From Candidatus Woesearchaeota archaeon (lineage in GTDB: Archaea; Nanobdellota; Nanobdellia; Woesearchaeales; JAHWIC01), in contig JAHWIK010000015.1 of the NCBI GenBank assembly GCA_019322485.1, forward strand, positions 23,216-87,215: a stretch of 64,000 bases of DNA. The letters are read 5' to 3'. Under the pieces are notes generated by a model. It was given only the letters and a program-made list of their open reading frames with translations, made no database searches and had not been told where the DNA came from. Positions 6,557 to 58,894 of the stretch are shown piece after piece (position 1 is the first letter of the stretch; each line of letters opens with the position of its first letter). Both the position numbers and the translations under genes were made by a program.

Positions 6557-7807
6557 TTATAGGAGTCTTATCTGCTTAACCTTTTCTTTTATGTATGGCT
6601 CTTTTATTAATTTTTTAACCAGGTCTTCTGGCTTTGTGAATTCTCTCTTCACCTTTGCAAAGACCTTTTTGCCTTTTGTGAATGTGTTCTTGTGCTTTGC
6701 TTTGAATCTTTTAACATGGAATTTCTGCTTTAATGCAGGCCCTTCGTGGAGCTTGATATTTGGCAGAGGTTTTTTATCGCAGATAAAGAAAATCGTTGCT
6801 TTTAATTCCTTATCCCAATGCCAGCCTTTTTCTAATATCTTGAAATCATTTCTTAGCAGTTTATCTGCCATATATTCAAAGGATTTTACGAGTTTTGCTC
6901 CTGCGATGTCTTCTTTTCTTCTTATTGTTTTGATGTCTAAGGCAATTAATTTCTTGTTTTTTGCTTTCTTTTTTAGGTCATCGGTTGTCAATACCTTTTC
7001 CTTGAAGAGCTCTTTTGACGGTTTTTTTAGGAAATTCTTGCAAGCCAATCTGAAATTATCGAATTTTTCCTTGCTAAGGGCTGCTGCAGCATTCCTGTCA
7101 TGCTGTACAGGGTCTATTAAGATTAATGGTGAATAGGCCTTTGATTTGTTTAGCTCCTGCAGCACATCCTTTCCTTTGTAGTATTTCTTTATGTCAATTA
7201 TTACCTTATCAGGCCATTTTGCTGCATTCCTTGCTAGTTTTAGGAACGAGCCGTAGTGGGTTGTTAGAACCTCGCAGATATAACCTGAGAATCCTCTTAT
7301 GTAGGATTCTGCACCATAGGCATTATTTGCTTTGCAGAATTGTTTTGTCAGCCTTATCTCATCTTTTAAGGCTTTATTTGTGTTGGCTGCAACCCATTTT
7401 GCATGCAATGGGCTTACATCAGTTATATTAACTGCCTGCTTGGCATCCTTTATATCGAGGATAGGGACTATCTCAAAGGTAAAGTTTCCTTTTTTTAGCT
7501 GAAAATAATCCCTGCTACCATGCAATTTTGTAATTCTTGGGAAAATTTTTTTTAATTTCTTCTCCAGGATACCGGATAACTGGTCGCTTTTGTCTTTATA
7601 CTTCGAATATTTGAAGCAGACAAATATATCTGCATCATTTGCACGCTTTAACCAGGTTCCTTTTGCACCAGAACCGCCCAGGATTACTTTAGCCTCTTTT
7701 ACCTTCTTCTTTAATGCTGAAAGAACAGAATAAATCTTTCCAGAAACCTCTGTTTTTAGCTCTTCATCTGGCTTTATTTCCTCTAAAACCTCTTTTAGTA
7801 AATTCAT
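6557..7807 (-). CDS. cca: archaeal class I CCA-adding enzyme (tRNA nucleotidyltransferase)
   Basis: 'LGGSGAKGTWLKRANDADIFVCF' matches the archaeal CCA-enzyme catalytic core (GS..kGTwL...DiDiFv). Length is about 416 aa. Confidence 0.85.
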   Translation of the reverse strand: MNLLKEVLEEIKPDEELKTEVSGKIYSVLSALKKKVKEAKVILGGSGAKGTWLKRANDADIFVCFKYSKYKDKSDQLSGILEKKLKKIFPRITKLHGSRDYFQLKKGNFTFEIVPILDIKDAKQAVNITDVSPLHAKWVAANTNKALKDEIRLTKQFCKANNAYGAESYIRGFSGYICEVLTTHYGSFLKLARNAAKWPDKVIIDIKKYYKGKDVLQELNKSKAYSPLILIDPVQHDRNAAAALSKEKFDNFRLACKNFLKKPSKELFKEKVLTTDDLKKKAKNKKLIALDIKTIRRKEDIAGAKLVKSFEYMADKLLRNDFKILEKGWHWDKELKATIFFICDKKPLPNIKLHEGPALKQKFHVKRFKAKHKNTFTKGKKVFAKVKREFTKPEDLVKKLIKEPYIKEKVKQIRLL

Positions 7808-35889: not shown

Positions 35890-36923
35890 GAAGCAAAACA
35901 AAAGAAATCAGGATTGGAAAACTGAAGATTGGCGGAGATAATCCTATTGCAATACAGTCAATGACTAATACTGATACAAAAGACGAGGAAGCAACAATAA
36001 AACAGATTCATGAGCTAGAGGAGAATGGCTGCGAGATAGTTAGGGTTTCTGTTCCTGACAAGGAATCGTTGCTTTCATTAAGAGCAATAAAAGAAAACAT
36101 AAGCATTCCATTGGTTGCTGATATTCATTTTGACCATAAATTAGCTGTAGAAGCTGCAAGGATTGCAGACAAGATAAGGATTAACCCAGGAAATATTGGG
36201 AAAGAGAACCTGAAAGAGGTTGTTGATGCTGTTATGGATTCAAATATTCCGATGAGGGTGGGGATTAACCTAGGTTCTTTGGAAAAAGACATTGAGAAGA
36301 AGTTTGGCCTTACTGCATTAGGTATGGTTGAGAGCGCAATGAGGTCTGTGAAAGAGATAGAAAGGCTTGGCTTCTACAATATGGTTATTTCATTAAAGGC
36401 TTCTGATGTGTTAAAGACAATAGAAGCTTACAGATTGTTTTCACAGAGGTCACAATACCCTTTACACGTCGGTATAACCGAGTCTGGGAGCAGTTTTACA
36501 GGAACTGTTAATTCATCAGTTGGAATTGGAGCTTTATTATTGCAGGGAATTGGAGATACAATCCGCGTTTCATTATCAGCTGAGCCTGTTGAAGAGGTTA
36601 AAGTTGGCTGGCAGATTCTGAAAGCACTTAGGCTTAGGAAGAGGGGGATTGACATAACAAGCTGCCCAACGTGCGCAAGAAAAGGCATAGATGTTATCAA
36701 TATTGTCAAGGAGCTTGAGCAAAGAACCTCAAAAATGAACAAGCCTTTGCATATTGCAGTTATGGGCTGCGGTGTTAATGGTCCAGGAGAAGCTAAAGAA
36801 GCTGATATTGGTGTTGTCGGCGGAAAAGGAAATGTTTTGCTTTACAAGAATGGAATGATGGTCGGCAATATTGAGGGAGATGTTCTTGAAAGGTTGATGA
36901 AGGAGATAGAGAATTCAAAATGA
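35886..36923 (+). CDS. ispG: 4-hydroxy-3-methylbut-2-en-1-yl diphosphate synthase
   Basis: 'IGGDNPIAIQSMTNT', 'RINPGNIG', 'SCPTCAR' and 'AVMGCGVNGPGEA'. ATGA overlap with dxs. Confidence 0.9.
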   Translation: MRSKTKEIRIGKLKIGGDNPIAIQSMTNTDTKDEEATIKQIHELEENGCEIVRVSVPDKESLLSLRAIKENISIPLVADIHFDHKLAVEAARIADKIRINPGNIGKENLKEVVDAVMDSNIPMRVGINLGSLEKDIEKKFGLTALGMVESAMRSVKEIERLGFYNMVISLKASDVLKTIEAYRLFSQRSQYPLHVGITESGSSFTGTVNSSVGIGALLLQGIGDTIRVSLSAEPVEEVKVGWQILKALRLRKRGIDITSCPTCARKGIDVINIVKELEQRTSKMNKPLHIAVMGCGVNGPGEAKEADIGVVGGKGNVLLYKNGMMVGNIEGDVLERLMKEIENSK

Positions 36924-38305
36924 GCTGGAAATTAATCACATTAAAACAGTATCCGATGTTCTCGAGATGGTGGATACATGAAGCGTTTCTCCACGATATG
37001 AAAGATACTTTAGGTATGAATTTTAAAATGTACAAATCGCTCTATAGCGGGACTTATGCTGATAGTGATGAGGTTGAAAAGTTAAGGTCTATGTTAATAT
37101 CTAAACTTGAAAAAGATATTGATTCAATTAGGAAATTATGTGAGAATTGGAAACATGATTGTGATGAGCTTATTAGATTTACAAAAGAATTAGAAAAATC
37201 GGACTTCTCAAAAAACTCTGATGAGGAATTAGTTAATTTATCAGAGAATTGCATTAAAAAATTAAGAAGAAGCGCTTCATATATTTATCTGTCAGTTGTT
37301 TTGGATGAATATTTTCAGAATTGGCTGAATAAAATACTTGAAGCTAAGGTTCAGGACCAGAATGAGAGGACAAAATACTTCCAAATTCTTACATCTCCAA
37401 CAAAAAATACTAAATTAATTGACGCTAAGAAGGTATTAATTGAGATTTCTAAAGTTGTTAAAGAGAAAGGTCTTGAGGGAGCAGAGGACTTAATCAAAGA
37501 TTATGTATCTAAATTTAAATGGCTTGGATATGATACTGGAATTGGAAGTGATTTAACTATAGAACAAACAAAGGATAAGATTTCTAATATTCTTGAGCAA
37601 AAACAGCACGACTCTGATGTTAAAAATAGGGATGAGGTCTTGTCTGAGTTGGATCTCAATGAAAAAGATAAAGAATTACTTGACTTGATGGACGAACTTA
37701 TTTTCCTAAGGACTTATAGGGCTGAAAGCAATATGGTTGCAGGAGCTGATATAAGGCCTATTCTTGAAGAACTTGCAAAAAGAGCCAATACAAATTATGA
37801 TAATCTAGTTCAATTAACCATTGATGAAATAAAAGACTCAATAAAGTCAAAAAAAGTAGACTTGAAGAAGATTGAGGAGAGAAAGAATAAGTATGGCTTG
37901 TTAATGGTCGATGGAAAGAATACAATCTACAGTGGAGATGAAGTGGATAAAGTAGAGGAAAAGGTTGAAGTTCCTGAAGGATTGACAGAGTTAAAAGGAT
38001 TAGTAGCACACCATGGAAATAAGAGGGGCCATGTTAAGATTGTTTTGAGGCATAAAGACTTTGATAAGATTGAATTTGGAGATATTTTGGTAACAAAGAT
38101 GACTAATCCTGATTTTATAGTTGTTTTAGAACAGTGTTCTGGAATAATTACAGACATTGGAGGGATAACCTCTCATGCAGCGATTGTTGCACGAGAACTA
38201 AACAAGCCATGCATTACAGGAACTCAATATGCTACAAAAGTCTTGAAAGATGGTGACTTAGTTGAGCTTGATACAGATAAAGGCATTGTAAAGATAATAA
38301 AATGA
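36920..38305 (+). CDS. uncharacterised protein with a C-terminal PEP-utilising-enzyme mobile (swivel phospho-His) domain
   Basis: C-terminal 'GIITDIGGITSHAAIVARELNKPCITG'. The N-terminal ~360 aa are helical and K/E-rich, with no ATP-grasp motif I can see. ATGA overlaps on both sides. Confidence 0.7.
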   Translation: MSWKLITLKQYPMFSRWWIHEAFLHDMKDTLGMNFKMYKSLYSGTYADSDEVEKLRSMLISKLEKDIDSIRKLCENWKHDCDELIRFTKELEKSDFSKNSDEELVNLSENCIKKLRRSASYIYLSVVLDEYFQNWLNKILEAKVQDQNERTKYFQILTSPTKNTKLIDAKKVLIEISKVVKEKGLEGAEDLIKDYVSKFKWLGYDTGIGSDLTIEQTKDKISNILEQKQHDSDVKNRDEVLSELDLNEKDKELLDLMDELIFLRTYRAESNMVAGADIRPILEELAKRANTNYDNLVQLTIDEIKDSIKSKKVDLKKIEERKNKYGLLMVDGKNTIYSGDEVDKVEEKVEVPEGLTELKGLVAHHGNKRGHVKIVLRHKDFDKIEFGDILVTKMTNPDFIVVLEQCSGIITDIGGITSHAAIVARELNKPCITGTQYATKVLKDGDLVELDTDKGIVKIIK

Positions 38306-39453
38306 ACATAGCAATCATAACAGCAGCTGGAAAAGGAACAAGGATGAATGAAAAAGTCAATAAAATATTGTTATCTTTAGTCGATAAATCAATAATTGAA
38401 GAAACAATCGAGGTTTTTGAGGCGTGTAAAGATATTGATGAGATAATTATTGTTGGAAACAGCGATGATATTGAATCATTAAACAAAATCAATGAAAAAA
38501 ATAATTATAAAAAAATTAAAAAAATCATTGAAGGCGGAGAACAACGGCAGGATTCAGTGTTTAATGGAATAAAATCCATTGAAAATGCGAGTAATGATGA
38601 TATTTTATTGATTCATAATGGTGCAAACCCCCTTGTAGACGAGAAAACGATTCTTGAATGTATTAAAGAAGCAAAGGAGCATGGGGCAGCTGTTGCTGCA
38701 ATGCCTGCAAAAGATACAATAAAACAGGTTGAGAATGGTTTTGTTGCTAAAACATTGGATAGAAAGCAGCTCTGGCAGATGCAGACACCGCAAACAATCC
38801 AGTTTGGGCTTGCGAAAGAGGCTTTTGAAAAGGCATTTGCTGATAATTTCTATGGAACTGATGATGTTGGGCTTGTAGAAAGGCTTGGAAAAAAGGTTAA
38901 GATTGTTGAGTGCAATACTGAGAACGTAAAAATCACAACAAAGAATGATTTAGAACAAGCAAGACTCTTGCTTAATGCTTCTGTTGTTGGAATCGGACAG
39001 GATTCCCACAAATTTACCGACGAGAAAAAGGATTTAGTTTTGGGTGGTGTAGTAATTCCAAATGAGCAGGGCTTAGAAGCAAACTCTGATGGTGATGTCA
39101 TCCTGCATGCCTTGTTTAATGCTTTAAGCCAGGCAGCTGGAGAAAAATCATTGGGAAATTATGCAGATTCAATGTGTGAGAATGGAATAAAAGACAGCAG
39201 AGAGTATCTAAGAGTGATTTTAGACATAATCAACAAGAAAAATTACAAGATAAATAATGTTGGCTTTATGATAGAAGCAAAAAAGCCAAGGCTAGGGGCT
39301 AATGAAGACAGAATAAAAGAGAATATTGCAAATTTATTGGGAATAACTAAAGATAAAGTTGGAATAACAGCAACCTCAGGAGAGGAATTAACTCCATTTG
39401 GCCAGGGCAAGGCAATACAGGTATTTTCAGTTGCAAGCTTAACAAGAAAATAA
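38302..39453 (+). CDS. ispDF: bifunctional IspD/IspF (MEP cytidylyltransferase / MEcPP synthase)
   Basis: N-terminal 'IITAAGKGTRM' is IspD-like. C-terminal 'GIGQDSHKF...SDGDVILHAL' is IspF-like. Confidence 0.9.
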   Translation: MNIAIITAAGKGTRMNEKVNKILLSLVDKSIIEETIEVFEACKDIDEIIIVGNSDDIESLNKINEKNNYKKIKKIIEGGEQRQDSVFNGIKSIENASNDDILLIHNGANPLVDEKTILECIKEAKEHGAAVAAMPAKDTIKQVENGFVAKTLDRKQLWQMQTPQTIQFGLAKEAFEKAFADNFYGTDDVGLVERLGKKVKIVECNTENVKITTKNDLEQARLLLNASVVGIGQDSHKFTDEKKDLVLGGVVIPNEQGLEANSDGDVILHALFNALSQAAGEKSLGNYADSMCENGIKDSREYLRVILDIINKKNYKINNVGFMIEAKKPRLGANEDRIKENIANLLGITKDKVGITATSGEELTPFGQGKAIQVFSVASLTRK

Positions 39454-39474
39454 TGAAAATCAAAGATTTTCAGT

Positions 39475-40344
39475 ATGTCAAAAACCAAGGTTTTTAACAT
39501 GATCCAGCTAAAAGCACACGCAAAGATAAACCTGACCTTAGATGTACTTGCAAGGCTGGATGACGGCTATCATCGGATAGAATCTATAAAACAGCAGGTT
39601 GGTTTGCACGATAAAATCTCATTAGGGCCATTGGATGATATAAAGGTAATCTGCAGCCATCCTAACATAACCACAAAAGAAAATCTTGTCTTTAAAACAG
39701 CATTGTTGCTAAAAAATGAATTTAATGTAGCAGAGGGAGCGAAGATAACAATAGAAAAAAATATTCCATTAGCTGCTGGCTTGGCTGGAGGCTCATCAGA
39801 CGCAGCAGCAACCCTGGTAGGATTAAACAAGCTTTGGAAACTTGAGCTTGATGAGCAGGAACTGACAAAATTAGCTGCAGAGATTGGAATGGATGTTCCT
39901 TTTTCTGTTGTTGGCGGTTCTTGTTTTGCAGAGGGCAAAGGCACTAAACTAAGCAGGATAGAGCTGCCTGAGATGCATGTGCTGTTAATCAACCCTGGTT
40001 TTGAAGTCTCTACAAGAACAGCTTACCAAAGCCTTGACTTGTCAAGAACAGGAAAGGCAATGGCAACAAAGAAACTATTGGAAGTAAGGAACATGGGTGT
40101 GAGAGAAATATCAAAGGTCATGCATAATGACTTTGAAGCTGTGGTGCTGGGGAAGCATTCTATTCTGAAAGAGATAAAGGGCAAATTAATGGAGAATAAT
40201 GCCTTGAATGCAATAGTATCTGGCTCAGGGCCAACTGTTTTTGGCTTGTTTGAGGATGAATCAACTATAAGCAAGGCTTACGAATCTCTTAAAGAAACTT
40301 ATCCATTTGTATTCATGACAAAAACAGTAGCGAGGAAAGAATGA
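39475..40344 (+). CDS. ispE: 4-diphosphocytidyl-2-C-methyl-D-erythritol kinase
   Basis: 'KAHAKINLTLDV', 'PLAAGLAGGSSDAAATL' and 'SGSGPTVFG' (GHMP kinase motifs). Confidence 0.9.
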   Translation: MSKTKVFNMIQLKAHAKINLTLDVLARLDDGYHRIESIKQQVGLHDKISLGPLDDIKVICSHPNITTKENLVFKTALLLKNEFNVAEGAKITIEKNIPLAAGLAGGSSDAAATLVGLNKLWKLELDEQELTKLAAEIGMDVPFSVVGGSCFAEGKGTKLSRIELPEMHVLLINPGFEVSTRTAYQSLDLSRTGKAMATKKLLEVRNMGVREISKVMHNDFEAVVLGKHSILKEIKGKLMENNALNAIVSGSGPTVFGLFEDESTISKAYESLKETYPFVFMTKTVARKE

Positions 40345-41153
40345 GAATTAAAAAAGCAAAGCACTCTGGATTTTGTTTTGGTGTTAAGAGGGCAGTAGAG
40401 TCAGCGCTGGGCACAGAGGGGGAAGTAAAGACATTAGGCCCATTAATACATAATCCTCAGTTTATAGCAGAGCTTGAGAAAAAGGGAATAAAATCTGTTG
40501 ATTCTGTCGATGAGGTTGAAAAAGGCTCTTTGATAATAAGGGCGCATGGTGTCCCGGATTCTGTTATAGAAAAGGCCAGGGGAAAAGGGCTTAATGTAAC
40601 TGATTTAACATGTCCTTTTGTCAGGAAGGTGCATGATTATGCTAAGGAATTCTACAAACAAGGCTATAGTGTGGTTGTGGTTGGAGAGAAAAACCATCCT
40701 GAGGTTGTAGGAATAATTGGCAACATTGATGGTATTGTTGTGGGCAATGCAGATGATGCAAGGAAACTTGGCAGGTTCGAAAAGATTGGAGTGGTTGCAC
40801 AAACAACACAATCACTTGAGAACTTTAACAATGTTGTTGATGAGCTGAAAAAGCATACAGATGAGTTAAAGGTACATAATACCATATGCTCTGAAACAGA
40901 TTCAAGGCAGAAACACGCTATTGAGCTGGCAAAAGAGGTTGACTTGATGATAGTTATTGGGGGGAGAAACTCTGGAAATACCAGAAGGCTTGCCCAGCTT
41001 TGCTCTAAATTAACTGAAACAAAGCATATTGAGTCTGAGGATGAGTTAAAGGAGGGGTGGTTTGCAGGCAAGGGTTGTGTTGGGATAACAGCTGGCGCTT
41101 CAACACCGGACAGCACAATCAAGAAGATTGAGGATAGAATCAGGGAGATATGA
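40341..41153 (+). CDS. ispH: 4-hydroxy-3-methylbut-2-enyl diphosphate reductase
   Basis: 'GFCFGVKRAV', 'GPLIHNPQ', 'LTCPFVRKVH', 'NTICSET' and 'GASTP'. Confidence 0.9.
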   Translation: MRIKKAKHSGFCFGVKRAVESALGTEGEVKTLGPLIHNPQFIAELEKKGIKSVDSVDEVEKGSLIIRAHGVPDSVIEKARGKGLNVTDLTCPFVRKVHDYAKEFYKQGYSVVVVGEKNHPEVVGIIGNIDGIVVGNADDARKLGRFEKIGVVAQTTQSLENFNNVVDELKKHTDELKVHNTICSETDSRQKHAIELAKEVDLMIVIGGRNSGNTRRLAQLCSKLTETKHIESEDELKEGWFAGKGCVGITAGASTPDSTIKKIEDRIREI

Positions 41154-42246
41154 GATTATGGAATTCATACAAGCAGTAGGGCAATACAAGGGAATAGTCA
41201 ATAAGACTTTAAGCACGTTCTTTGATAATCATATCAATAAAACACAGGATGGCTTTCTAAAATTTAATTATTCTACACTTAGGGATTATGTTTTGCGGGA
41301 CGGCAAGAGATTAAGGCCAATCACACTGATAATGGCTTACAAGTCAATAACTGATAATGATGAGCAGAAGATTTACATGCCTTCTTTGAGTATGGAACTG
41401 TTCCATGCTTCCTCATTAATACATGATGATATAATGGATGAGGATGATTTAAGGAGGGGAAAAGAGAGCATGCATACCCTGTTTAACCAGTGGTTTGTTG
41501 ATAATCACGGCCAGGCAGGCTATAATGGGCCTATATTTAACCAGTTATCTACTAAGTTTGGGGTTTCTATGGCAATACTGCAGGGAAATATACTGATTGC
41601 TTTAGGTGAGTCCTGCTTGTCAGGCTCCTCATTTGCCCCGGAACAGATAAAGGCTGCTTTAATGGTGTGCAATAACACAAACAAGGTAGTTAATGAAGGC
41701 CAGATACAGGACATTGTTCTGGAGACAAAGAGGGAGTTTACTGAAAATGATTATTTGAGTATGATTGCTAAGAAAACAGGCAAATTATTCAGCACATCTC
41801 TTGAGATAGGTGCAGTATTTGCAGGTGCAACAGATTCTCAGAGAAAAGCGCTTGATAATTATGCATTATCTGCAGCAACAACATTCCAGATACAGGACGA
41901 TATAATGGACATAAGCCCTGATATGAAAAAGGGGCATGAGGTTGGCTCTGATATAAAGCAGGGAAAAAGAACCTTGCTTGTTATGAAGGCCCTGGAAAAA
42001 GGGGATGAAGGCCAAAAAAAGGTTTTGTTTGATGCTCTTGGCAATGAGAAAGCAACACCAGAAGAAATAGAGATTGCTATCGATGTTATGCACGCTACAG
42101 GGGCAGTTGATTATGCAAAGAATCTTGCAGCTGATATGATTAAGAAAGGAAAGGATGCGCTTAAGGAAGCAGACCCTGCTTTATCTTCTGATGGATTGAA
42201 GTTCTTTAATGATTTAGCAGATTATATGGTAAATAGAAATGTCTAG
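41128..42246 (+). CDS. trans-polyprenyl (GGPP-type) diphosphate synthase
   Basis: FARM 'LIHDDIMDEDDLRRG' and SARM 'FQIQDDIMD'. The true start may be the ATG at 41159 (MEFIQAV...). Confidence 0.85.
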   Translation: MRIESGRYEIMEFIQAVGQYKGIVNKTLSTFFDNHINKTQDGFLKFNYSTLRDYVLRDGKRLRPITLIMAYKSITDNDEQKIYMPSLSMELFHASSLIHDDIMDEDDLRRGKESMHTLFNQWFVDNHGQAGYNGPIFNQLSTKFGVSMAILQGNILIALGESCLSGSSFAPEQIKAALMVCNNTNKVVNEGQIQDIVLETKREFTENDYLSMIAKKTGKLFSTSLEIGAVFAGATDSQRKALDNYALSAATTFQIQDDIMDISPDMKKGHEVGSDIKQGKRTLLVMKALEKGDEGQKKVLFDALGNEKATPEEIEIAIDVMHATGAVDYAKNLAADMIKKGKDALKEADPALSSDGLKFFNDLADYMVNRNV

Positions 42247-43244: not shown

Positions 43245-43393
43245 AGTATCACCTTTAGTCTATTTTATTTGGAAACAAATGAGAATTCATTTTGTCTCCA
43301 GTATAAGCGAGCCATTATTGACCTGCTTATCTCTCGATATAATATAGGAATGATAATTGGTTTAAAAACCTTACTATATGAAGAAATAATCAA

Positions 43394-43565
43394 TAGCCCC
43401 GGGCAGATTCGAACTGCCGTCCCCGGCTGTTTTCGATGGAAATCGCAAAACTGTTGGAAATCTTTGATTTCCACCACCAAAAGCAGGGATGATTTGTCGG
43501 AAATCGGAGATTTCTGAGCAAATTGAAAATCTCCGATTTTCAATTGACCACTACACTACGGGGCT
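43394..43565 (-). tRNA. tRNA-Gln(UUG) with two introns (51 nt in the D-arm, 48 nt at 37/38)
   Basis: Hand fold gives acceptor AGCCCCG/CGGGGCU (A1-U72) and D arm GUGU-AGUGGUCAA-[intron]-UCAU. The AC stem is CCUGC/GCCGG with a U-C mismatch, and the loop is UUUUGG|A. The T arm is GGCAG-UUCGAAU-CUGCC. The mature length is 73 nt. Intron 2 forms a full hBHBh' motif. Confidence 0.7.
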
Positions 43566-50619: not shown

Positions 50620-52584
50620 ATGGTACCAGATAATGGAGAAAAGGATACTGGTAACTCTACAGAAGGACCTCCAGAGGACACCCAAGGAGAACCTACAGAG
50701 AGCCCTACAGAAGCCTCTACAGAAGAACCTGAAGAAGAAAAGCTTCTAGTAATAAGACCTTTTGATGAGGTTAAGGCGGATTTGATAAGGCTATCTGAAT
50801 CAACGGATGATGCTGAGAAGGAAGTGATTCGTGGTAGGTTACATGAGGACTTCGATTCTGTCTATCCTATGTTAAAGGGACTGCCTCGCGGGGAAGATGC
50901 TACACTTCTTTCCTACCCTGGGCAAGAGAATATGGTTTCTGCTGTGGATATGGTTGCTAAAAAACCCAAAAAGAAATATGTAGATATGGCAAGCCAACAA
51001 CTAGGCAGGCTTTATGAATCGTATCAGGCAGAGGTTCTTCAAGCGAAATGGAATACTGAAGCTGAGAAACTGCAGTCAGCAGTAGCAAACCCACAAGAGA
51101 CAATAACCCATCTAAGAACTTCCCTTTCTTCTCATCTGTCAGGGCTTCATAGAGATGTTCGTGCTTGTACCATCGACCTATTAATAAAATATAGGGACTT
51201 TAAAATAGGGGAAGATCCTGCTCGGGATGAGGAGAGGATCACTGATAGTTTGCTTGACCCTGAAGATGGGTATTACATCTTAGGTTATACCATAAGGATT
51301 TTTGAGGATGTAAGCGCTAGATATAATGATGTCCGGCTTAAGCAACTTGCACTGAATCCAAGTATTGCTGATACAGCCCGTACCTTATTGCAGATAGTTA
51401 ATGAGGCTCGAAAGATAACTGGGGAGGCTGGCCTTAGTTTAGAAATCTCGTGCAGGGAAGAACTTGAAGCTATGCTGGAGAAAGGAGAGCCTTCTCCTGC
51501 TGATTCAGAGAGGATACTTGCCACTAATAACGAAATACTAATACAACTTGGTAATTTCTTGCTTGATGCTGTTCAAGGCACAAGTTTAGAAGGTAAGTTG
51601 GATTATAAGAAACAAGACTTGCCTGAGAGAGAGCAGGCAGATAAACCAAAAGCGCCACGCAGGGAATATAAAAGGTCTGCTCCGAGCAGGGTATTTTCAA
51701 ATGAATCTCACTCTGAACTTGCAGGTCTTATTTGCACGCTTTCTGCTTCAGAGAATAACGAGGAGTGGGCAGAGATGAGGGGGTGTATAAAAGGAATGCT
51801 GAGTGAGGCGTATAGAGCAATAGGGATAACAGAGGCACATGTGAACGAAATACGTTTGACCTATCCTAAAGAGGAGGAGTTATGTTCTTTGGCTGATAAA
51901 ATTCCTGAACAAAAGGAGACAACTTATGAATTAACTGCTAAGGTGAGAGCTCTTTATGAAGCTGGCACTGCTTACACTGCCCTGGCTTTTTGGAAGAGAT
52001 GGGTGGCTTCATTAAAGGAAGAGTTGGCAACTGAATCTATGGTATATGATACCTGGAAAGGTGCTTTATCAACTTATATGAAGCATTGCGCACCTGAATC
52101 TAGGGACGAAGTTAATAAACGTTTGATAGCGCGTAGAAGGTCAGTCATGGGAGAAGAAGAAAGCCAGAAGTATAGTGATGAGGAAATACTTTTAGCAGTA
52201 AATTCCGAGCTGGATGACAGAGGTAGGCCTGATTTAATGTTAGATCATTCTGCAATATTTTTTGAGGTTGCTATAGAAGATTACGCTCGTTTAGCAAATG
52301 ATGTATGTAAGAAATGGAGGGGCACAACTGAGTTTATTGGTGCTATGCTTAGGTTTTGTGGCGGTGTTTCTCCTTTGGCAGGCTCGTTAGGTATAACTGC
52401 AGATGATTCAGACAGCACCAAACTTAAGGAGTCGTATGAAAAAGGGCTGGGCTATGTTATGGAAGATGAGCATGACCCAAAAGATGTTGCTAATACTTTA
52501 GGTACTTCAAAGAATGTATTGAAGCAGTACGGGGAAATTTATATTAAAATTCTTGAGAAGGTTGCTGAAGAGAAACAGAAATAA
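50620..52584 (+). CDS. acidic hypothetical protein (654 aa) with a two-fold internal duplication
   Basis: Long ORF with an acidic, low-complexity N-terminus. The two ~300-aa halves are alignable by eye. Its stop codon abuts the 3' end of tRNA-Arg. Confidence 0.6.
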   Translation: MVPDNGEKDTGNSTEGPPEDTQGEPTESPTEASTEEPEEEKLLVIRPFDEVKADLIRLSESTDDAEKEVIRGRLHEDFDSVYPMLKGLPRGEDATLLSYPGQENMVSAVDMVAKKPKKKYVDMASQQLGRLYESYQAEVLQAKWNTEAEKLQSAVANPQETITHLRTSLSSHLSGLHRDVRACTIDLLIKYRDFKIGEDPARDEERITDSLLDPEDGYYILGYTIRIFEDVSARYNDVRLKQLALNPSIADTARTLLQIVNEARKITGEAGLSLEISCREELEAMLEKGEPSPADSERILATNNEILIQLGNFLLDAVQGTSLEGKLDYKKQDLPEREQADKPKAPRREYKRSAPSRVFSNESHSELAGLICTLSASENNEEWAEMRGCIKGMLSEAYRAIGITEAHVNEIRLTYPKEEELCSLADKIPEQKETTYELTAKVRALYEAGTAYTALAFWKRWVASLKEELATESMVYDTWKGALSTYMKHCAPESRDEVNKRLIARRRSVMGEEESQKYSDEEILLAVNSELDDRGRPDLMLDHSAIFFEVAIEDYARLANDVCKKWRGTTEFIGAMLRFCGGVSPLAGSLGITADDSDSTKLKESYEKGLGYVMEDEHDPKDVANTLGTSKNVLKQYGEIYIKILEKVAEEKQK

Positions 52585-52700
52585 TGCCCCTGCCGAGAAT
52601 CGAACTCGGGTCTTCAGGTTTTTGCAAAATTGCCGCAACCTAATATTCTTTTTGGCTATGCCGAACCTTGTTCAGCAAGTATCCACTATACTACAGGGGC
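52585..52700 (-). tRNA. probable tRNA-Arg(GCG) with a 13-nt 37/38 intron and a ~31-nt D-arm insertion
   Basis: Acceptor GCCCCUG/CAGGGGC. T arm CCGAG-UUCGAUU-CUCGG. AC stem UUAGG/CCUGA with loop UUGCGG|A. The mini-intron CAAUUUUGCAAAA gives H = UUGC/GCAA flanked by 3-nt bulges. I could not fix the D-arm boundaries by hand. Confidence 0.6.
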
Positions 52701-52712
52701 AATAATTTGTTT

Positions 52713-54976: not shown

Positions 54977-57130
54977 TTATACCTTTTCTGTTACAACGTA
55001 CGTCTTGTAAGTATACTGCCTTGGTGGTATTGGTTGAGGTGCGGGTTGAGGTGTTGGTTCTGGTGCAGGCTGTGGTGCTGGTGCAGGCGCTGGTGTTGGC
55101 TCAGGAGTAGGCTCCGGAGCTGGTTCTGGTGCAGGCTGTGGTGCTGGTGCAGGTGTTATTGGTGTTGGTTGCGGTGCGCTTGTAACAACCATTTGAGGAA
55201 GGGTTTGCCGTTCTATTACACTAACAATCCATCTGACACTTACAGCAGCTTTGCCATCAGAGATAATAACTCTCACCTCTTTTTTTCCAGGAGAAGTAAA
55301 CCAACGTCTATGCAGCGGGCCCCCTTTGTAGCGCGCAAGTGGACCAAATATCCATTCATAGCTTAGTGCATCACCATCAGGGTCCTGGGCAGATGCTTGG
55401 AACAAAACAGAGCTGTTGACATAAACACCAAATTGACCCACCATTGGGCTGACATTCCATACAACAGGCTCCCTGTTTGTGTTGTGCACAAGGACTACTG
55501 CATCTTCGCTTGAATTTAAGTCACCATCTGAAGCTGTAAAGGTGACTGTATATTGTTTTGCTTCCAGCCTTCTTGTCTCATCATGGCTGGGGGTCCAGCT
55601 AAACCCGTCTGCATCAAAACTTGAGCCGGCAGGCACATCTTCTGCAGATGTGACAATCCTGTCATTATCTGGGTCATAGGAATTAACATTAAAGTGTAAA
55701 ACTGCTCCTTCATCTACATCCTGCTGAGGTATTTCCTCAAGAACAGGCGGCCTGTTAACATTATTTACAACAACTGTTACGTTCTTCTCAACAGAGGTTT
55801 TGCTGTCAGATAATTTAATAAATACTGTGTAGGTGCCTGCATCATCATAACCAGTCCCTTTCACAGCTTTGTTCATCCAGCCGCTATATCTATAAGATAC
55901 CTTATCACCATCAAGGTCATATCCATTAGGCTCTAATACAAGGGTTTCCCCTTCATTCATGACTATTGTTCCCATATCTTCAAGCACAGGGGCCCTATTC
56001 TCTTCCATGACCCTAATCTTTATGGTTTTGGTTGTGCTAAATTCATTGCTTTCAGCCAGGAATGTTATAGTTTGAGTTCTGCTGAGTAAGTGGAAATTGT
56101 CAAGGAAATATGTAAAGAGGTTTGTTTTTTTAACAAAATCCTTGCTTGGTGTCCATTTAAAGACATTGCCATCAAATCCTGAATTTTCCGGCGCTTCAAG
56201 AACTGTGATTATTATATCATCGCCATCTGGGTCGCTGGCATTTACTACTAAGTTTACTTCCTCACCTTCTCTTACAGTTATATCATGGAGTGGTTCAATT
56301 ATCGGTTCGCGGTCTACATCATAAACTACAAGGTCTACCTTTTTTGAATATTCAAAATCCCTGTCCCTTATTGTTATTGTTACCATGTATTCACCATCAT
56401 CCTCATAGGTGGTTTGCCAGAAATTTTCATTGCCTATTGGCTCTGATATCTCATATTCAAGATGGTAGGCTCCTAAATCAGGAAGCTCGATACTTACTAT
56501 GTCTGTTTCATCTACTTCAATATAGCTTATGTTATCCAGGAGTTGTGCCCTGTCAACATCCTCAATATCCATAGTCCATTCCTGGGATGTTTTAAGCGTG
56601 CTGTCAGATACAACTACTTTTATGGTATGCGTTCCCTGGTCAAAATAGTCTGCGTAATACTCAATCTCTTGCTCCCTGCCTAAGAATTCATCATCAATGA
56701 ACCATTTGTAGGTTAGTTCATCTTCGTTTATGTCAGAGGCCTCAGCCCTGAAGTAGAGGCTTTCACCCTCTTCAATTGACAAAGAGGTATCTTCTGGGTA
56801 GAAATCATATATTTCAGGCTGTTCTTCTTTTTTGTTAACAACGATTATGACCTCTTCTTCTGTGATAAGGTCGCCGTCAGAAGCAGTGACTGAGGCAATA
56901 TAATTTCCAGCATCTCCATAGGTAGTTTGCCATTCTCCCTCGCTGTTTAAGGGGTATGTGTAGGAATATTCTAATGTATCACCGTCAGGATCATCAAAAG
57001 AAGGTTTTATGGAGACAAGGTCAGTCTCATTAACTATCATATTAGTTAGAGAATAAGTTATTGGCAATACAATAATTAGAACTAATACTAAAATTAACCA
57101 TTTCTTATCCATTAACCCAACCCCCAACAT
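54977..57130 (-). CDS. secreted protein with ~7 Ig/cadherin-like 'DPDGD' repeat domains and a Pro-rich tail
   Basis: N-terminal TM/signal. Repeated 'D.DGD.L.Y.....WQTTY.D.G.Y.V.I..SDG'. Tail 'PAPAPQPAPEPAPEPTPEPTP'. Confidence 0.7.
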   Translation of the reverse strand: MLGVGLMDKKWLILVLVLIIVLPITYSLTNMIVNETDLVSIKPSFDDPDGDTLEYSYTYPLNSEGEWQTTYGDAGNYIASVTASDGDLITEEEVIIVVNKKEEQPEIYDFYPEDTSLSIEEGESLYFRAEASDINEDELTYKWFIDDEFLGREQEIEYYADYFDQGTHTIKVVVSDSTLKTSQEWTMDIEDVDRAQLLDNISYIEVDETDIVSIELPDLGAYHLEYEISEPIGNENFWQTTYEDDGEYMVTITIRDRDFEYSKKVDLVVYDVDREPIIEPLHDITVREGEEVNLVVNASDPDGDDIIITVLEAPENSGFDGNVFKWTPSKDFVKKTNLFTYFLDNFHLLSRTQTITFLAESNEFSTTKTIKIRVMEENRAPVLEDMGTIVMNEGETLVLEPNGYDLDGDKVSYRYSGWMNKAVKGTGYDDAGTYTVFIKLSDSKTSVEKNVTVVVNNVNRPPVLEEIPQQDVDEGAVLHFNVNSYDPDNDRIVTSAEDVPAGSSFDADGFSWTPSHDETRRLEAKQYTVTFTASDGDLNSSEDAVVLVHNTNREPVVWNVSPMVGQFGVYVNSSVLFQASAQDPDGDALSYEWIFGPLARYKGGPLHRRWFTSPGKKEVRVIISDGKAAVSVRWIVSVIERQTLPQMVVTSAPQPTPITPAPAPQPAPEPAPEPTPEPTPAPAPAPQPAPEPTPQPAPQPIPPRQYTYKTYVVTEKV

Positions 57131-58272: not shown

Positions 58273-58456
58273 ATACCAACACCTCCAGGTTTTTGTGTTT
58301 TTATTATTTTTATCATTATAAAATGGGAACTTCTATATAAACTTTATGGTAGTCAAAGCTATAAAACCATTTTTTTTTTACCACTGTTTCCGACGACAAA
58401 CTTAGACTTTTTTCGTAACTGGGTTTGGACGAATCGGAAAAATTTGCTGAAAAATC

Positions 58457-58480
58457 TGAAAAAAATGGGCCCGCTGTGAC
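58457..58480 (-). repeat. orphan 24-nt copy (23/24 identical) of the tRNA-Ile 3' exon plus its T-tract
   Basis: tgaaaaaaatgggcccgcTgtgac here matches tgaaaaaaatgggcccgcCgtgac at 58572..58595. I found no matching 5' acceptor strand upstream. Confidence 0.7.
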
Positions 58481-58573
58481 CTAAGGGTTTCACCCGATAG
58501 ACCCCTGTAGGGAACATAAAGTTCCCTGCCGCAATTTGCTGTATAGTTAAGATTGCGGATTGTTAAGTTTTTG

Positions 58574-58580
58574 AAAAAAA
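58574..58580 (-). terminator. oligo-T tract (T7) directly after tRNA-Ile
   Basis: Seven T residues on the transcribed strand follow the discriminator base. Archaeal termination signals are oligo-T tracts. Confidence 0.5.
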
Positions 58581-58712
58581 TGGGCCCGCCGTGACTTTCT
58601 AGCCACAAGTTTTAGAACTTGATGACATTTGAACACGGGACCACTCGATGTCTGTATTTCGCTTGCGCGAAATGTATCAGTCGAGCGCGCCACCAGACTA
58701 TGCCACGGGCCC
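58581..58712 (-). tRNA. tRNA-Ile(GAU) with two introns (25 nt at 37/38; 33 nt in the T-loop, ~59/60)
   Basis: The fold is GGGCCCG-UG-GCAU-AGUCUGGUG-GCGC-G-CUCGA-CUGAUA|A-UCGAG-UGGUC-CCGUG-UUCAAAU-CACGG-CGGGCCC-A. Intron 1 has a 7-bp h' helix with a GCAA tetraloop and 3-nt bulges. Confidence 0.75.
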
Positions 58713-58728
58713 ACTATCATAACAAAAA

Positions 58729-58856
58729 CGCCTCTGGGCAGATTTTCCCGCCATAAATCTTTCGGATTTAATGCGTCTCGAACTGCCGACCTTGTGATTT
58801 CTTCACCAAAGAATTGGTGTAACAGTCACACGCTCTACCTGCTAAGCTACAGAGGC
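58729..58856 (-). tRNA. tRNA-Asn(GUU) with two introns (21 nt at 37/38; 34 nt in the T-loop)
   Basis: The fold is GCCUCUG-UA-GCUU-AGCAGGUA-GAGC-G-UGUGA-CUGUUA|A-UCACA-AGGUC-GGCAG-UUCGA|AU-CUGCC-CAGAGGC-G. The mature length is 73 nt. Confidence 0.75.
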
Positions 58857-58878
58857 ATTAAGTTCAAGAATTGATACT

Positions 58879-58894
58879 ATATTTATATAATTTT
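58879..58894 (-). promoter_or_regulatory. BRE/TATA promoter for the tRNA-Asn/tRNA-Ile pair
   Basis: The minus strand reads AAAATTATATAAATA, centred about 30 nt upstream of tRNA-Asn position 1. Confidence 0.45.

What the first reader, a model, noticed from the sequence alone, without database searches (positions are those of the whole stretch)
58581..58856. Tandem tRNA-Asn and tRNA-Ile genes each carry a second intron inside the T-loop
Both genes fold into complete cloverleaves only if two introns are excised. One is a canonical 37/38 intron (21 nt and 25 nt). The other is a 33-34 nt intron that interrupts the T-loop (Asn 58744-58777; Ile 58594-58626).

For tRNA-Ile, the canonical intron shows a 7-bp helix capped by a GCAA tetraloop between two 3-nt bulges. 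Its T-loop intron can be drawn with bulges AA|U and AG|U around UUCA/AGAA, which places the splice at 59/60.

All four tRNA genes in this window appear to have two introns each. That density is known mainly from Thermoproteales and some DPANN lineages. It implies a broad-specificity splicing endonuclease.
Basis: partly seen in the sequence, partly recalled or inferred. Interest (0 to 1): 0.55.

Follow-up and report, generated by a model that had tools for sequence, protein, structure and literature searches.

The report
Two-intron tRNA genes in a Woesearchaeote
Two adjacent archaeal tRNA genes (Asn and Ile) are each interrupted by a normal anticodon-loop intron and by a second intron in the T-loop; this is real and conserved in relatives, but it is a known kind of archaeal tRNA gene disruption rather than something new.

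Summary
On the minus strand, 58856-58729 encodes tRNA-Asn(GTT) and 58712-58581 encodes tRNA-Ile(GAT). Each needs two excisions: a 37/38 intron (21 nt and 25 nt) and a 59/60 T-loop intron (34 nt and 33 nt). The spliced products are complete cloverleaves, and no single deletion rescues either gene. The host is a Candidatus Woesearchaeota (DPANN) archaeon.

The Asn-Ile pair is syntenic in related genomes, where each intron is present in some and absent in others. Intron-free orthologues carry exactly the T-loops that 59/60 splicing would produce. All 17 T-loop introns collected keep at least 3 of 4 central-helix pairs of a bulge-helix-bulge motif in the 59/60 register only. Exon stems covary.

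The other two tRNA genes in the window, Arg(GCG) and Gln(TTG), also have two introns each (D-loop plus 37/38).

The 59/60 position, multi-intron tRNAs and heavy tRNA disruption in DPANN are all published, so this is a new member of a known kind. The splicing endonuclease type could not be determined because no EndA gene lies in the window. ARAGORN and Rfam miss all four genes. A 115-bp duplication of the tRNA-Ile 3' end lies just downstream.

The parts
58729..58856 (-). tRNA-Asn(GTT) gene, 128 nt. Exons 58856-58820, 58798-58777 and 58742-58729. No encoded CCA.
   Evidence: The spliced 73-nt product is called tRNA-Asn(gtt) by ARAGORN. Orthologues in L003 and L013 have no introns and score 66-68 bits with the Rfam tRNA model. 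Full pre-tRNA fold z = -4.4.
58799..58819 (-). Asn intron 1, 21 nt, canonical position 37/38. Bulges UA|C and AA|A, central helix CUGU/GAAG (3 of 4 pairs), 5-bp inner helix.
   Evidence: Top-scoring bulge-helix-bulge among all splice-site pairs in the precursor. Orthologues carry 0-44 nt at the same site.
58743..58776 (-). Asn intron 2, 34 nt, T-loop position 59/60. Bulges AG|A and AA|U, central helix UUCG/GGAA (3 of 4 pairs), inner helix starts at intron nt 2.
   Evidence: Third-ranked strict bulge-helix-bulge. T-arm fold. Register test. Absent in 7 of 10 orthologues; 6 of those 7 read TTCGAGT, the 59/60 product, and the most distant (L012) reads TTCGAAC.
58581..58712 (-). tRNA-Ile(GAT) gene, 132 nt. 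Exons 58712-58675, 58649-58628 and 58594-58581. A12xC23 mismatch in the D-stem, shared with L001.
   Evidence: The spliced 74-nt product is called tRNA-Ile(gat) and is identical to the spliced L001 orthologue. Intron-free orthologues in L018 and L020 score 67-70 bits. Covariation on alignment A1.
58650..58674 (-). Ile intron 1, 25 nt, position 37/38. 7-bp helix AUUUCGC/GCGAAAU with a GCAA loop, central helix CUGA/ACAG (3 of 4 pairs), bulges UA|C and AC|A.
   Evidence: Top bulge-helix-bulge score. The motif appears in the minimum-energy fold of the whole precursor.
58595..58627 (-). Ile intron 2, 33 nt, T-loop position 59/60. Central helix UUCA/AGAA (3 of 4 pairs), bulges AA|U and AG|U, inner helix GUCA..UGGC plus CAAGUU/AACUUG, one extra U before the central helix.
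   Evidence: A homologous intron sits at the same site in L001-L004, L008 and 8 distinct metagenome sequences.
58881..58890 (-). TATA-like box (TTATATAAAT), 25-34 nt upstream of the Asn 5' end. Probable archaeal promoter of the pair.
   Evidence: Read directly. The same motif is conserved upstream of Asn in L001. Function is inferred.
58713..58728 (-). 16-nt Asn-Ile spacer (TTTTTGTTATGATAGT). Too short for a separate promoter, and it begins with T5.
   Evidence: Read directly. L001 has a 69-nt spacer with its own TATA-like box. Co-transcription is inferred.
58574..58580 (-). T7 tract directly after the Ile discriminator base. Probable archaeal terminator.
   Evidence: Read directly.
58457..58481 (-). 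Orphan copy of the tRNA-Ile 3' end (intron tail, nt 60-73, T7, CA). It is a 25-nt direct repeat of 58572-58596 with 2 mismatches, 115 nt downstream.
   Evidence: Absent from L001. Orthologous flank resumes only after the orphan. Its A-for-G change would break the T-stem.
52585..52700 (-). tRNA-Arg(GCG) gene with a 31-nt D-loop intron (52650-52680, about position 20/21, relaxed motif) and a 13-nt 37/38 intron (52620-52632, perfect 4-bp central helix UUGC/GCAA).
   Evidence: D-arm boundary fixed by homology to the L003 tRNA-Arg. The spliced product is called tRNA-Arg(gcg).
43394..43565 (-). tRNA-Gln(TTG) gene with a 49-nt D-loop intron (43494-43542) and a 48-nt 37/38 intron (43429-43476). U29xC41 mismatch in the anticodon stem.
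   Evidence: The spliced product is called tRNA-Gln(ttg).
6557..7807 (-). Archaeal class I CCA-adding enzyme. It supplies the CCA that none of the four tRNA genes encodes.
   Evidence: Pfam tRNA_NucTransf2 9.5e-37, CAA_C 7e-14, NTP_transf_2.

Best explanation
These are two functional tRNA genes of a Woesearchaeota (DPANN) archaeon. Each carries two protein-spliced bulge-helix-bulge (BHB) introns: one at the canonical 37/38 site and one at the non-canonical T-loop site 59/60.

Proposed pathway:
1. The pair is transcribed from a TATA-box promoter upstream of tRNA-Asn, probably as one precursor because the spacer is only 16 nt, and ends at a T7 tract.
2. In each arm the loop nucleotides (32-35 or 54-57) pair with the four intron nucleotides at -6 to -3. 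This creates a 4-bp helix flanked by two 3-nt bulges.
3. The archaeal splicing endonuclease EndA cuts after the second nucleotide of each bulge.
4. An RtcB-type ligase joins the exons.
5. RNase P and RNase Z trim the ends, and the CCA-adding enzyme encoded in the same window adds CCA.

Shown here: the exon/intron architecture, BHB geometry in the 59/60 register, conservation and covariation of the exons, and presence/absence of the introns among orthologues.

Inferred: transcription, cleavage, ligation and the enzyme type.
For: 1. Excising both inserts gives complete cloverleaves called by ARAGORN. No single deletion does so (0 of 2,119 per gene).
2. The host is archaeal/DPANN.
3. The Asn-Ile pair is syntenic next to the same radical-SAM gene in related genomes. 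The T-loop intron is present in 3 of 10 Asn and 6 of 11 Ile orthologues. Of the 7 uninterrupted Asn orthologues, 6 read TTCGAGT; of the 5 uninterrupted Ile orthologues, 4 read TTCAAAT. These are exactly the 59/60 splice products; the exception in each case is the most distant locus, L012. Orthologues with no intron or only a 37/38 intron score 54-70 bits with the Rfam tRNA model.
4. The spliced Ile of the window and of L001 are identical at 74 of 74 positions, while their introns differ in length and sequence.
5. On 9 distinct spliced Ile sequences, 98.9% of stem cells pair. Seven pairs show compensatory changes, 3 of them in the T-stem that the intron splits. Zero of 500 shuffles reach this, and slid registers collapse to 36-50%.
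6. All 17 T-loop introns (9 from genomes, 8 from a metagenome scan whose pattern left the intron free) have at least 3 of 4 central-helix pairs in the 59/60 register, and 9 have 4 of 4. Every other register gives at most 7 of 17.
7. Unconstrained folds place the inner intron helix at intron nt 2 in 8 of 9 cases. The L001 Ile fold is a textbook hBHBh'.
8. The 37/38 BHBs are the top-scoring motifs in both precursors. Full precursor folds have z = -4.4 and -4.2.
9. Position 59/60 is a published intron site, and a 59/60 intron was cleaved in vitro by a DPANN EndA (PMC4090602, PMC3239211).
Against: - There is no RNA evidence for transcription or splicing.
- EndA and RtcB are not in the window, so the enzyme is assumed.
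- The central helices of all four window introns have one mismatch (3 of 4 pairs). RNAfold does not form this weak U-A/U-A/C-G helix spontaneously in most cases.
- The Ile T-loop motif has one extra nucleotide, so it fails the strict-geometry scan.
- tRNA-Ile has an A12xC23 D-stem mismatch and lacks its own promoter. A T5 tract after Asn might terminate transcription before Ile.
- My exon parsing located the 5' T-stem strand by complementarity to the 3' strand, which slightly favours pairing. The flanking variable-loop and TTCRA sequences fix the position independently.
Confidence: 0.9

Rival explanations
1. The genes are pseudogenes: once-normal tRNA genes inactivated by random insertions into the T-loop and no longer producing functional tRNA.
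For: - Standard tools do not recognise them.
- There is a D-stem mismatch in Ile.
- A duplication scar sits next to the Ile gene.
- There is no expression data.
Against: - The insert sits at exactly the same inter-nucleotide position in 17 sequences from independent assemblies, always with a BHB-competent 3' end.
- Exons are perfectly conserved between the window and L001 while the introns diverge.
- The T-stem covaries across intron-containing copies.
- In each locus these are the only Asn and Ile genes at the syntenic site.
Confidence: 0.04
2. The T-loop inserts are real introns but are spliced at a neighbouring register (58/59 or 60/61) rather than at 59/60.
For: - The cloverleaf alone cannot fix the junction.
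- For Ile, 60/61 gives the same product as 59/60.
- The Ile motif has an extra nucleotide, which leaves some freedom.
Against: - The register test peaks sharply at 59/60 (17 of 17, against at most 7 of 17 elsewhere).
- For Asn, only 59/60 gives TTCGAGT, the T-loop of 6 of the 7 uninterrupted orthologues; the seventh (L012) has TTCGAAC.
Confidence: 0.04
3. The orphan 3' end downstream (58457-58481) is the 3' half of a split or trans-spliced tRNA, so the locus encodes a Nanoarchaeum-style split gene in addition to the intron-containing genes.
For: - It has a tRNA-like 3' end (UCACAG-CGGGCCC-A) followed by its own T7 tract.
- The host is a DPANN archaeon, and split tRNAs are known from Nanoarchaeum (PMC4090602).
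- The 115-nt segment folds with z = -2.2.
Against: - No partner 5' half exists. GGGCCCG occurs only in the Ile gene, the orphan and one coding site in the window.
- The orphan lacks the GAA element needed to pair with U54-C56.
- It is absent in the closest relative, and the orthologous flank resumes right after it, which is the signature of a local duplication or insertion.
- Its A-for-G change breaks pairing with the Ile 5' T-stem strand.
Confidence: 0.02

Closest known systems
ARMAN-2 (Candidatus Micrarchaeum acidiphilum) pre-tRNA-Cys(GCA) with a 59/60 intron, and pre-tRNA-Pro(GGG) with 53/54 plus 59/60 introns (PMC3239211)
   Same: - DPANN host.
- Intron at exactly 59/60 in the T-loop with a bulge-helix-bulge motif.
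- Occurs in a genome whose tRNA genes are heavily disrupted.
- Cleavage of a 59/60 intron was shown in vitro for ARMAN-2.
   Different: - Different phylum-level lineage (Woesearchaeota).
- Different tRNAs (Asn and Ile).
- Longer introns (33-34 nt against 13 nt) with a full inner helix, closer to strict hBHBh' than the hBH form of ARMAN-2 tRNA-Cys.
- Combined here with a 37/38 intron rather than a second T-loop intron.
- The enzyme here is unknown. Epsilon2 EndA has been reported only from the Micrarchaeum group (PMC5829648).
Multi-intron tRNA genes of Thermoproteales and other Crenarchaeota (Sugahara et al. 2007/2008 and Marck & Grosjean 2003, as cited in PMC4090602 and PMC8450103)
   Same: - Two or three BHB introns per tRNA gene.
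- Non-canonical sites including 20/21 and 59/60.
- Intron gain and loss between close relatives.
- Relaxed BHB variants.
   Different: - Those hosts are TACK archaea with (alpha-beta)2 EndA carrying the crenarchaeal loop.
- Here the host is a mesophilic, low-GC DPANN archaeon.
- Local density here is 8 introns in 4 genes, against a reported Thermoproteales mean of 0.84 per gene (PMC8450103). Four genes is a very small sample.
DPANN tRNA gene disruption linked to alpha4 EndA with the L3 loop (Kaneta et al. 2018, PMC5829648)
   Same: That study included a Woesearchaeota genome. It reported increased tRNA disruption in DPANN lineages and noted that incomplete tRNA sets imply undetected disrupted genes. 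The genes here are exactly that kind of case.
   Different: That work did not describe these genes or the lineage-wide tRNA-Ile 59/60 intron. I could not verify the EndA type for this genome.
[quoted passage not shown]
   Same: A tRNA-Ile with three BHB-type introns in the same three arms, as seen here in the L002, L025 and L030/L032 orthologues.
   Different: Eukaryotic red-alga host and a different anticodon. The resemblance is convergent, with no shared ancestry implied.

Membership tests
Archaeal protein-spliced (BHB/EndA-dependent) tRNA introns | Precise excision restores a canonical cloverleaf tRNA | tested here: met
   ARAGORN calls full-length Asn, Ile, Arg and Gln after excision. No single deletion works for Asn or Ile.
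Archaeal protein-spliced (BHB/EndA-dependent) tRNA introns | Exon-intron junctions lie in two 3-nt bulges on opposite strands, separated by a 4-bp helix (hBHBh' or a relaxed variant) | tested here: met
   All four introns of the two target genes have 3 of 4 central pairs with 3-nt bulges. Orthologous T-loop introns have 4 of 4 in 9 of 17 cases, and the L001 Ile minimum-energy fold is a strict hBHBh'. The window's Ile T-loop motif has one extra nucleotide, making it a relaxed form.
Archaeal protein-spliced (BHB/EndA-dependent) tRNA introns | The host is an archaeon or eukaryote that encodes a splicing endonuclease (EndA) and an RNA ligase (RtcB) | tested here: inconclusive
   An archaeal (Woesearchaeota) host is established. 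No EndA or RtcB gene lies among about 60 window ORFs.
Archaeal protein-spliced (BHB/EndA-dependent) tRNA introns | Introns are actually removed from the transcript (spliced mature tRNA, released or circular intron) | not testable with these tools
   No RNA data are available.
Non-canonical 59/60 T-loop intron class | The insertion point lies between nucleotides 59 and 60, the structural equivalent of 37/38 in the T-arm | tested here: met
   The register test peaks at 59/60 (17 of 17). Six of 7 uninterrupted Asn orthologues (TTCGAGT) and 4 of 5 uninterrupted Ile orthologues (TTCAAAT) have T-loops equal to the 59/60 products.
Split / trans-spliced tRNA genes (Nanoarchaeum type), considered for the orphan 3' end at 58457-58481 | Separate 5' and 3' half genes whose trailer and leader are complementary and form a BHB at the junction | tested here: not met
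   There is no matching 5' half in the window and no UUC-pairing GAA element. The orphan is a lineage-specific local duplication.
Self-splicing group I / group II introns in tRNA genes | An intron of hundreds of nucleotides with conserved catalytic core structure | tested here: not met
   The inserts are 13-49 nt. Rfam finds no intron family, even at E-value 10 in the region.

The most novel reading that the evidence does not exclude
The 59/60 intron of tRNA-Ile(GAU) is an old, vertically inherited feature of a large part of the Woesearchaeales, kept by selection rather than drifting neutrally. I found it in 14 distinct sequences from independent samples, with homologous inner helices showing compensatory changes. 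In this reading it is processed by an alpha4-type EndA with the DPANN 'L3' loop. Possible benefits are ordering of T-loop modification or masking the T-arm/3' end from integrases. The 115-bp duplication that begins at the intron/3'-exon boundary would then be the scar of an integration into an intron-bearing tRNA gene.
Probability: 0.15. Interest if true: 0.5.

Novelty: new member of a known kind. Interest (0 to 1): 0.3.

Why it matters
- Annotation: ARAGORN and Rfam missed all four tRNA genes in this 64-kb window, and every T-loop-intron copy in the relatives. Woesearchaeota genomes annotated with such tools will appear to lack tRNA-Asn, Ile, Arg and Gln. That distorts tRNA-count quality criteria and any inference about reduced translation capacity in DPANN. 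Kaneta et al. 2018 had already suspected undetected disrupted tRNA genes in these lineages.
- Evolution: the set of orthologues with 0, 1, 2 or 3 introns at fixed sites is a clean natural series for studying intron gain and loss, and for testing which EndA architecture handles T-loop and D-loop introns in DPANN.
- It does not change what is known about how archaeal tRNA introns work.

Tried and rejected
- Default ARAGORN, ARAGORN in intron mode and Rfam on the raw window found none of the target genes. ARAGORN's intron-mode calls at 43394-43565 (Lys) and 52584-52701 (Pro) hit the right loci with the wrong intron models and anticodons. Its calls at 55053-55230 and 58338-58490 are spurious.
- Brute-force deletion scored by ARAGORN was too permissive to resolve the Arg gene, with 14,385 calls across many anticodons. 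I replaced it with a strict cloverleaf scorer combined with a bulge-helix-bulge (BHB) scorer.
- The BHB scan alone has a high background. Chance motifs score 13-14 against 14-16 for the real ones, so it was used only together with the cloverleaf and comparative evidence.
- Exact-protein look-up of a neighbouring gene found no record.
- BLAST of the Arg and Gln genes against the related loci found nothing. L001 lacks the tRNA-Arg next to DUF4416. The Arg D-arm boundary was settled only by homology with the L003 tRNA-Arg.
- EndA search: tblastn used an M. jannaschii EndA sequence recalled from memory and is therefore weak. Pfam scans of about 60 window ORFs found no EndA or RtcB.
- Two viral-contig scans, one for the tRNA-Ile 3' end and one for the 90-nt inserted piece, returned nothing.
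- The split-tRNA reading of the orphan 3' end was rejected.
- GC-rich islands in other intergenic gaps are terminator hairpins or coding sequence, not further RNA genes.

Full report
**1. What is at 58581-58856**

On the plus strand nothing is recognisable. ARAGORN finds no gene and Rfam at gathering score finds nothing in the whole window. A permissive Rfam search gives only a 20.4-bit partial tRNA match at 58772-58856.

The minus strand reads as two tRNA genes.
- 58856..58729 has a 7-bp acceptor stem GCCUCUG/CAGAGGC, a D-arm, an anticodon stem UGUGA/UCACA around CUGUUA...A, and a T-stem GGCAG/CUGCC.
- 58712..58581 has acceptor GGGCCCG/CGGGCCC, anticodon stem CUCGA/UCGAG around CUGAUA...A, and T-stem CCGUG/CACGG.
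- In both genes the anticodon loop and the T-loop each contain an insert.

Removing both inserts gives a 73-nt tRNA-Asn(GTT) and a 74-nt tRNA-Ile(GAT), both called by ARAGORN. A strict cloverleaf search over all one- and two-deletion models returns the same layout. None of 2,119 single-deletion constructs per gene is called a tRNA.

**2. Host and surroundings**

The neighbouring genes are archaeal, including Hel308 domain 4, a CDP-alcohol phosphatidyltransferase and PKD/Ig surface proteins. The radical-SAM gene 1.7 kb away is 100% identical to a protein of a Candidatus Woesearchaeota archaeon on a 92.6-kb NCBI contig. The 24 related genome loci are mostly labelled Woesearchaeota or Nanoarchaeota. 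The window has 38.8% GC.

A TATA-like box (TTATATAAAT, 58881-58890) lies 25-34 nt upstream of Asn and is conserved in the closest relative, L001. The Asn-Ile spacer is only 16 nt, against 69 nt with its own TATA-like box in L001, so the two genes are probably co-transcribed. A T7 tract follows Ile. Neither gene encodes CCA, and a class I CCA-adding enzyme is encoded at 6557-7807.

**3. Comparative evidence**

The Asn-Ile pair sits beside the radical-SAM gene in many related loci. The inserts are present in some orthologues and absent in others, always at fixed sites.

| Gene | Orthologues compared | With 37/38 insert (size) | With T-loop insert (size) | Other |
|---|---|---|---|---|
| Asn | 10 | 8 (14-44 nt) | 3 (32-37 nt) | - |
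| Ile | 11 | 9 (14-42 nt) | 6 (31-40 nt) | 2 have a D-loop insert |

- Intron-free orthologues (L003 and L013 Asn; L018 and L020 Ile) score 66-70 bits with the Rfam tRNA model. Copies with only a 37/38 intron score 54-60 bits. Every copy with a T-loop insert is missed.
- Six of the 7 uninterrupted Asn orthologues read TTCGAGT, and 4 of the 5 uninterrupted Ile orthologues read TTCAAAT. These are exactly the products of excision between nt 59 and 60 in the window genes. The exception in both cases is the most distant locus, L012 (TTCGAAC and TTCGAAT).
- The spliced Ile sequences of the window and L001 are identical at 74 of 74 positions. Their introns differ in length (25 vs 14 nt; 33 vs 34 nt) and in sequence. 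This is the pattern expected when selection acts on the exons only.
- On nine distinct spliced Ile sequences, 98.9% of stem cells pair. Seven pairs show compensatory changes, three of them in the T-stem that the intron splits. Zero of 500 shuffles reach these values, and slid registers fall to 36-50% paired.
- Caveat: I located the 5' T-stem strand by complementarity, which favours pairing a little. Its position is also fixed by the flanking variable loop and the TTCRA motif.

**4. Bulge-helix-bulge (BHB) geometry**

Archaeal EndA cuts after the second nucleotide of each of two 3-nt bulges separated by a 4-bp helix. For a 37/38 intron the helix is nt 32-35 paired with intron nt -6 to -3. The T-arm equivalent is nt 54-57, with the cut at 59/60.

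- A scan of every possible splice-site pair ranks the 37/38 motifs first in both precursors, and the Asn T-loop motif third. Chance motifs score nearly as high, so this scan is not decisive alone.
- A metagenome scan for a tRNA-Ile T-arm with an insert, with the intron interior and its 3' end left unspecified, gave eight more distinct sequences. Three of the genes (two distinct sequences, since L030 and L032 are identical) have three introns.
- Across all 17 T-loop introns, the 59/60 register gives at least 3 of 4 central pairs in 17 of 17, and 4 of 4 in 9 of 17. Any other register gives at most 7 of 17.
- The window genes read UUCG/GGAA with bulges AG|A and AA|U (Asn), and UUCA/AGAA with bulges AA|U and AG|U (Ile).
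- Unconstrained folds of the T-arms place the inner intron helix at intron nt 2 in 8 of 9 cases. The L001 Ile fold is a strict hBHBh'.
- The full Ile precursor fold reproduces the 37/38 motif with the 7-bp GCAA-capped helix. Both full precursors fold far better than shuffles, with z = -4.4 and -4.2.
- Weak points: all four window introns have one mismatch in the central helix, and the Ile T-loop motif has one extra nucleotide.

**5. The other tRNA genes in the window**

An acceptor/T-arm scan finds two more genes.
- 52700..52585 is tRNA-Arg(GCG). It has a 13-nt 37/38 intron with a perfect central helix UUGC/GCAA, and a 31-nt D-loop intron at about 20/21 with a relaxed motif. The D-loop intron boundary was set by homology with the L003 tRNA-Arg D-arm, GUAU...GAAC.
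- 43565..43394 is tRNA-Gln(TTG). It has a 49-nt D-loop intron and a 48-nt 37/38 intron.
- Both spliced products are called by ARAGORN.
- No other RNA genes hide in the intergenic GC-rich islands.

**6. Mechanism and what remains inferred**

The best explanation is ordinary archaeal tRNA splicing. EndA cuts at two independent BHB motifs per precursor, an RtcB-type ligase joins the exons, the ends are trimmed and CCA is added.

Architecture, geometry and evolutionary constraint are shown here. Transcription, cleavage and the enzyme are inferred. No EndA or RtcB gene is among the roughly 60 ORFs of the window, so the EndA type is unknown for this genome.

Kaneta et al. 2018 (PMC5829648) report alpha4 EndAs with an L3 loop in several DPANN lineages together with increased tRNA disruption. 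They note that incomplete tRNA sets point to undetected disrupted genes. Because the T-loop motifs here are close to strict, they do not by themselves demand very relaxed specificity. The relaxed D-arm motifs of the Arg and Gln genes argue for it more.

**7. Comparison with what is known**

- Position 59/60 is listed among the non-canonical intron sites (PMC4090602).
- ARMAN-2, another DPANN archaeon, has a 59/60 intron in tRNA-Cys that its epsilon2 EndA cleaves in vitro, and a tRNA-Pro with 53/54 plus 59/60 introns (PMC3239211).
- Genes with two or three introns are well known in Thermoproteales. tRNAscan-SE 2.0 searches for such introns, but with BHB models trained on Crenarchaeota/Euryarchaeota and Thaumarchaeota introns (PMC8450103).

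This is therefore a new member of a known kind. The modest additions are three: the lineage-wide tRNA-Ile 59/60 intron in Woesearchaeota, the local density of two introns per gene, and the demonstration that common tools miss all of these genes.

**8. Side finding at the locus**

The tRNA-Ile 3' end (intron tail, nt 60-73, T7, CA; 58572-58596) is repeated 115 nt downstream at 58457-58481 with two mismatches. L001 has no such copy. Its flank downstream of Ile is orthologous to the window sequence that follows the orphan.

This looks like an att-type or slippage duplication around a ~90-nt insert that forms two 7-bp hairpins. Viral-contig scans for either part found nothing. A split-tRNA reading is rejected.

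Noticed in passing
window 58457-58596 (minus strand): A 25-nt direct repeat of the tRNA-Ile 3' end plus terminator (58572-58596 and 58457-58481, 2 mismatches) flanks a ~90-nt insert with two 7-bp hairpins (CCGCAAU..AUUGCGG and AGGGAAC..GUUCCCU). It is absent from the closest relative L001, and orthologous flank resumes after the second copy. It looks like an integration or duplication scar at the intron/3'-exon boundary.
   Followed up: partly
window 33997-42246 (+): A contiguous bacterial-type MEP/DOXP isoprenoid gene cluster in an archaeon: DXS, GcpE/IspG, a PEP-utilizer-domain protein, fused IspD-IspF, a GHMP kinase (IspE-like), LytB/IspH and a polyprenyl synthetase. No Dxr was recognised. 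From my own knowledge, archaea normally use the mevalonate route.
   Followed up: no
window 58713-58728 versus L001 13307-13375: The Asn-Ile spacer is 16 nt in the window, begins with T5 and has no room for a promoter. In L001 it is 69 nt with its own TATA-like box. tRNA-Ile expression in the window lineage may depend on read-through from tRNA-Asn.
   Followed up: partly
L002 7778-7929, L012 5616-5478 (-), L025, L030/L032: Orthologous tRNA-Ile genes with a third intron in the D-loop. Three of them (L002, L025, L030) share a conserved intron 3' end, UGGACAAU, whose GGAC can pair with G15-U17a of the D-loop to form a BHB central helix with the cut near 19/20.
   Followed up: partly
L026 331-394 (-) region: A tRNA with anticodon loop CUUAUA, i.e. 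tRNA-Ile(UAU), carries the same 59/60 T-loop intron type plus a 37/38 intron. The T-loop intron is therefore not confined to the GAU isoacceptor.
   Followed up: no
window 15432-17414 (-): A 660-aa ORF has ribosomal L10/P0 domains only in its first ~180 residues. From my own knowledge this is about twice the usual P0 length. It could be a long C-terminal extension or a mis-joined ORF.
   Followed up: no
window 26013-32063 (-) and 9911-12505 (-): Two very large ORFs (2016 aa and 864 aa) have no Pfam match at all. They lie near PKD/Ig-type and WxL-interacting-like surface proteins, so they may be lineage-specific surface proteins.
   Followed up: no
window 43265-43543 (-) and 58629-58874 (+): Mechanical ORFs of 92 aa and 81 aa overlap the tRNA-Gln gene and the tRNA-Asn/Ile genes. 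Gene callers that miss the interrupted tRNAs could annotate these as hypothetical proteins.
   Followed up: no
window 43394-43565 (-): The spliced tRNA-Gln(UUG) has a U29xC41 mismatch in the middle of the anticodon stem. The spliced tRNA-Ile has A12xC23 in the D-stem, shared with L001.
   Followed up: no
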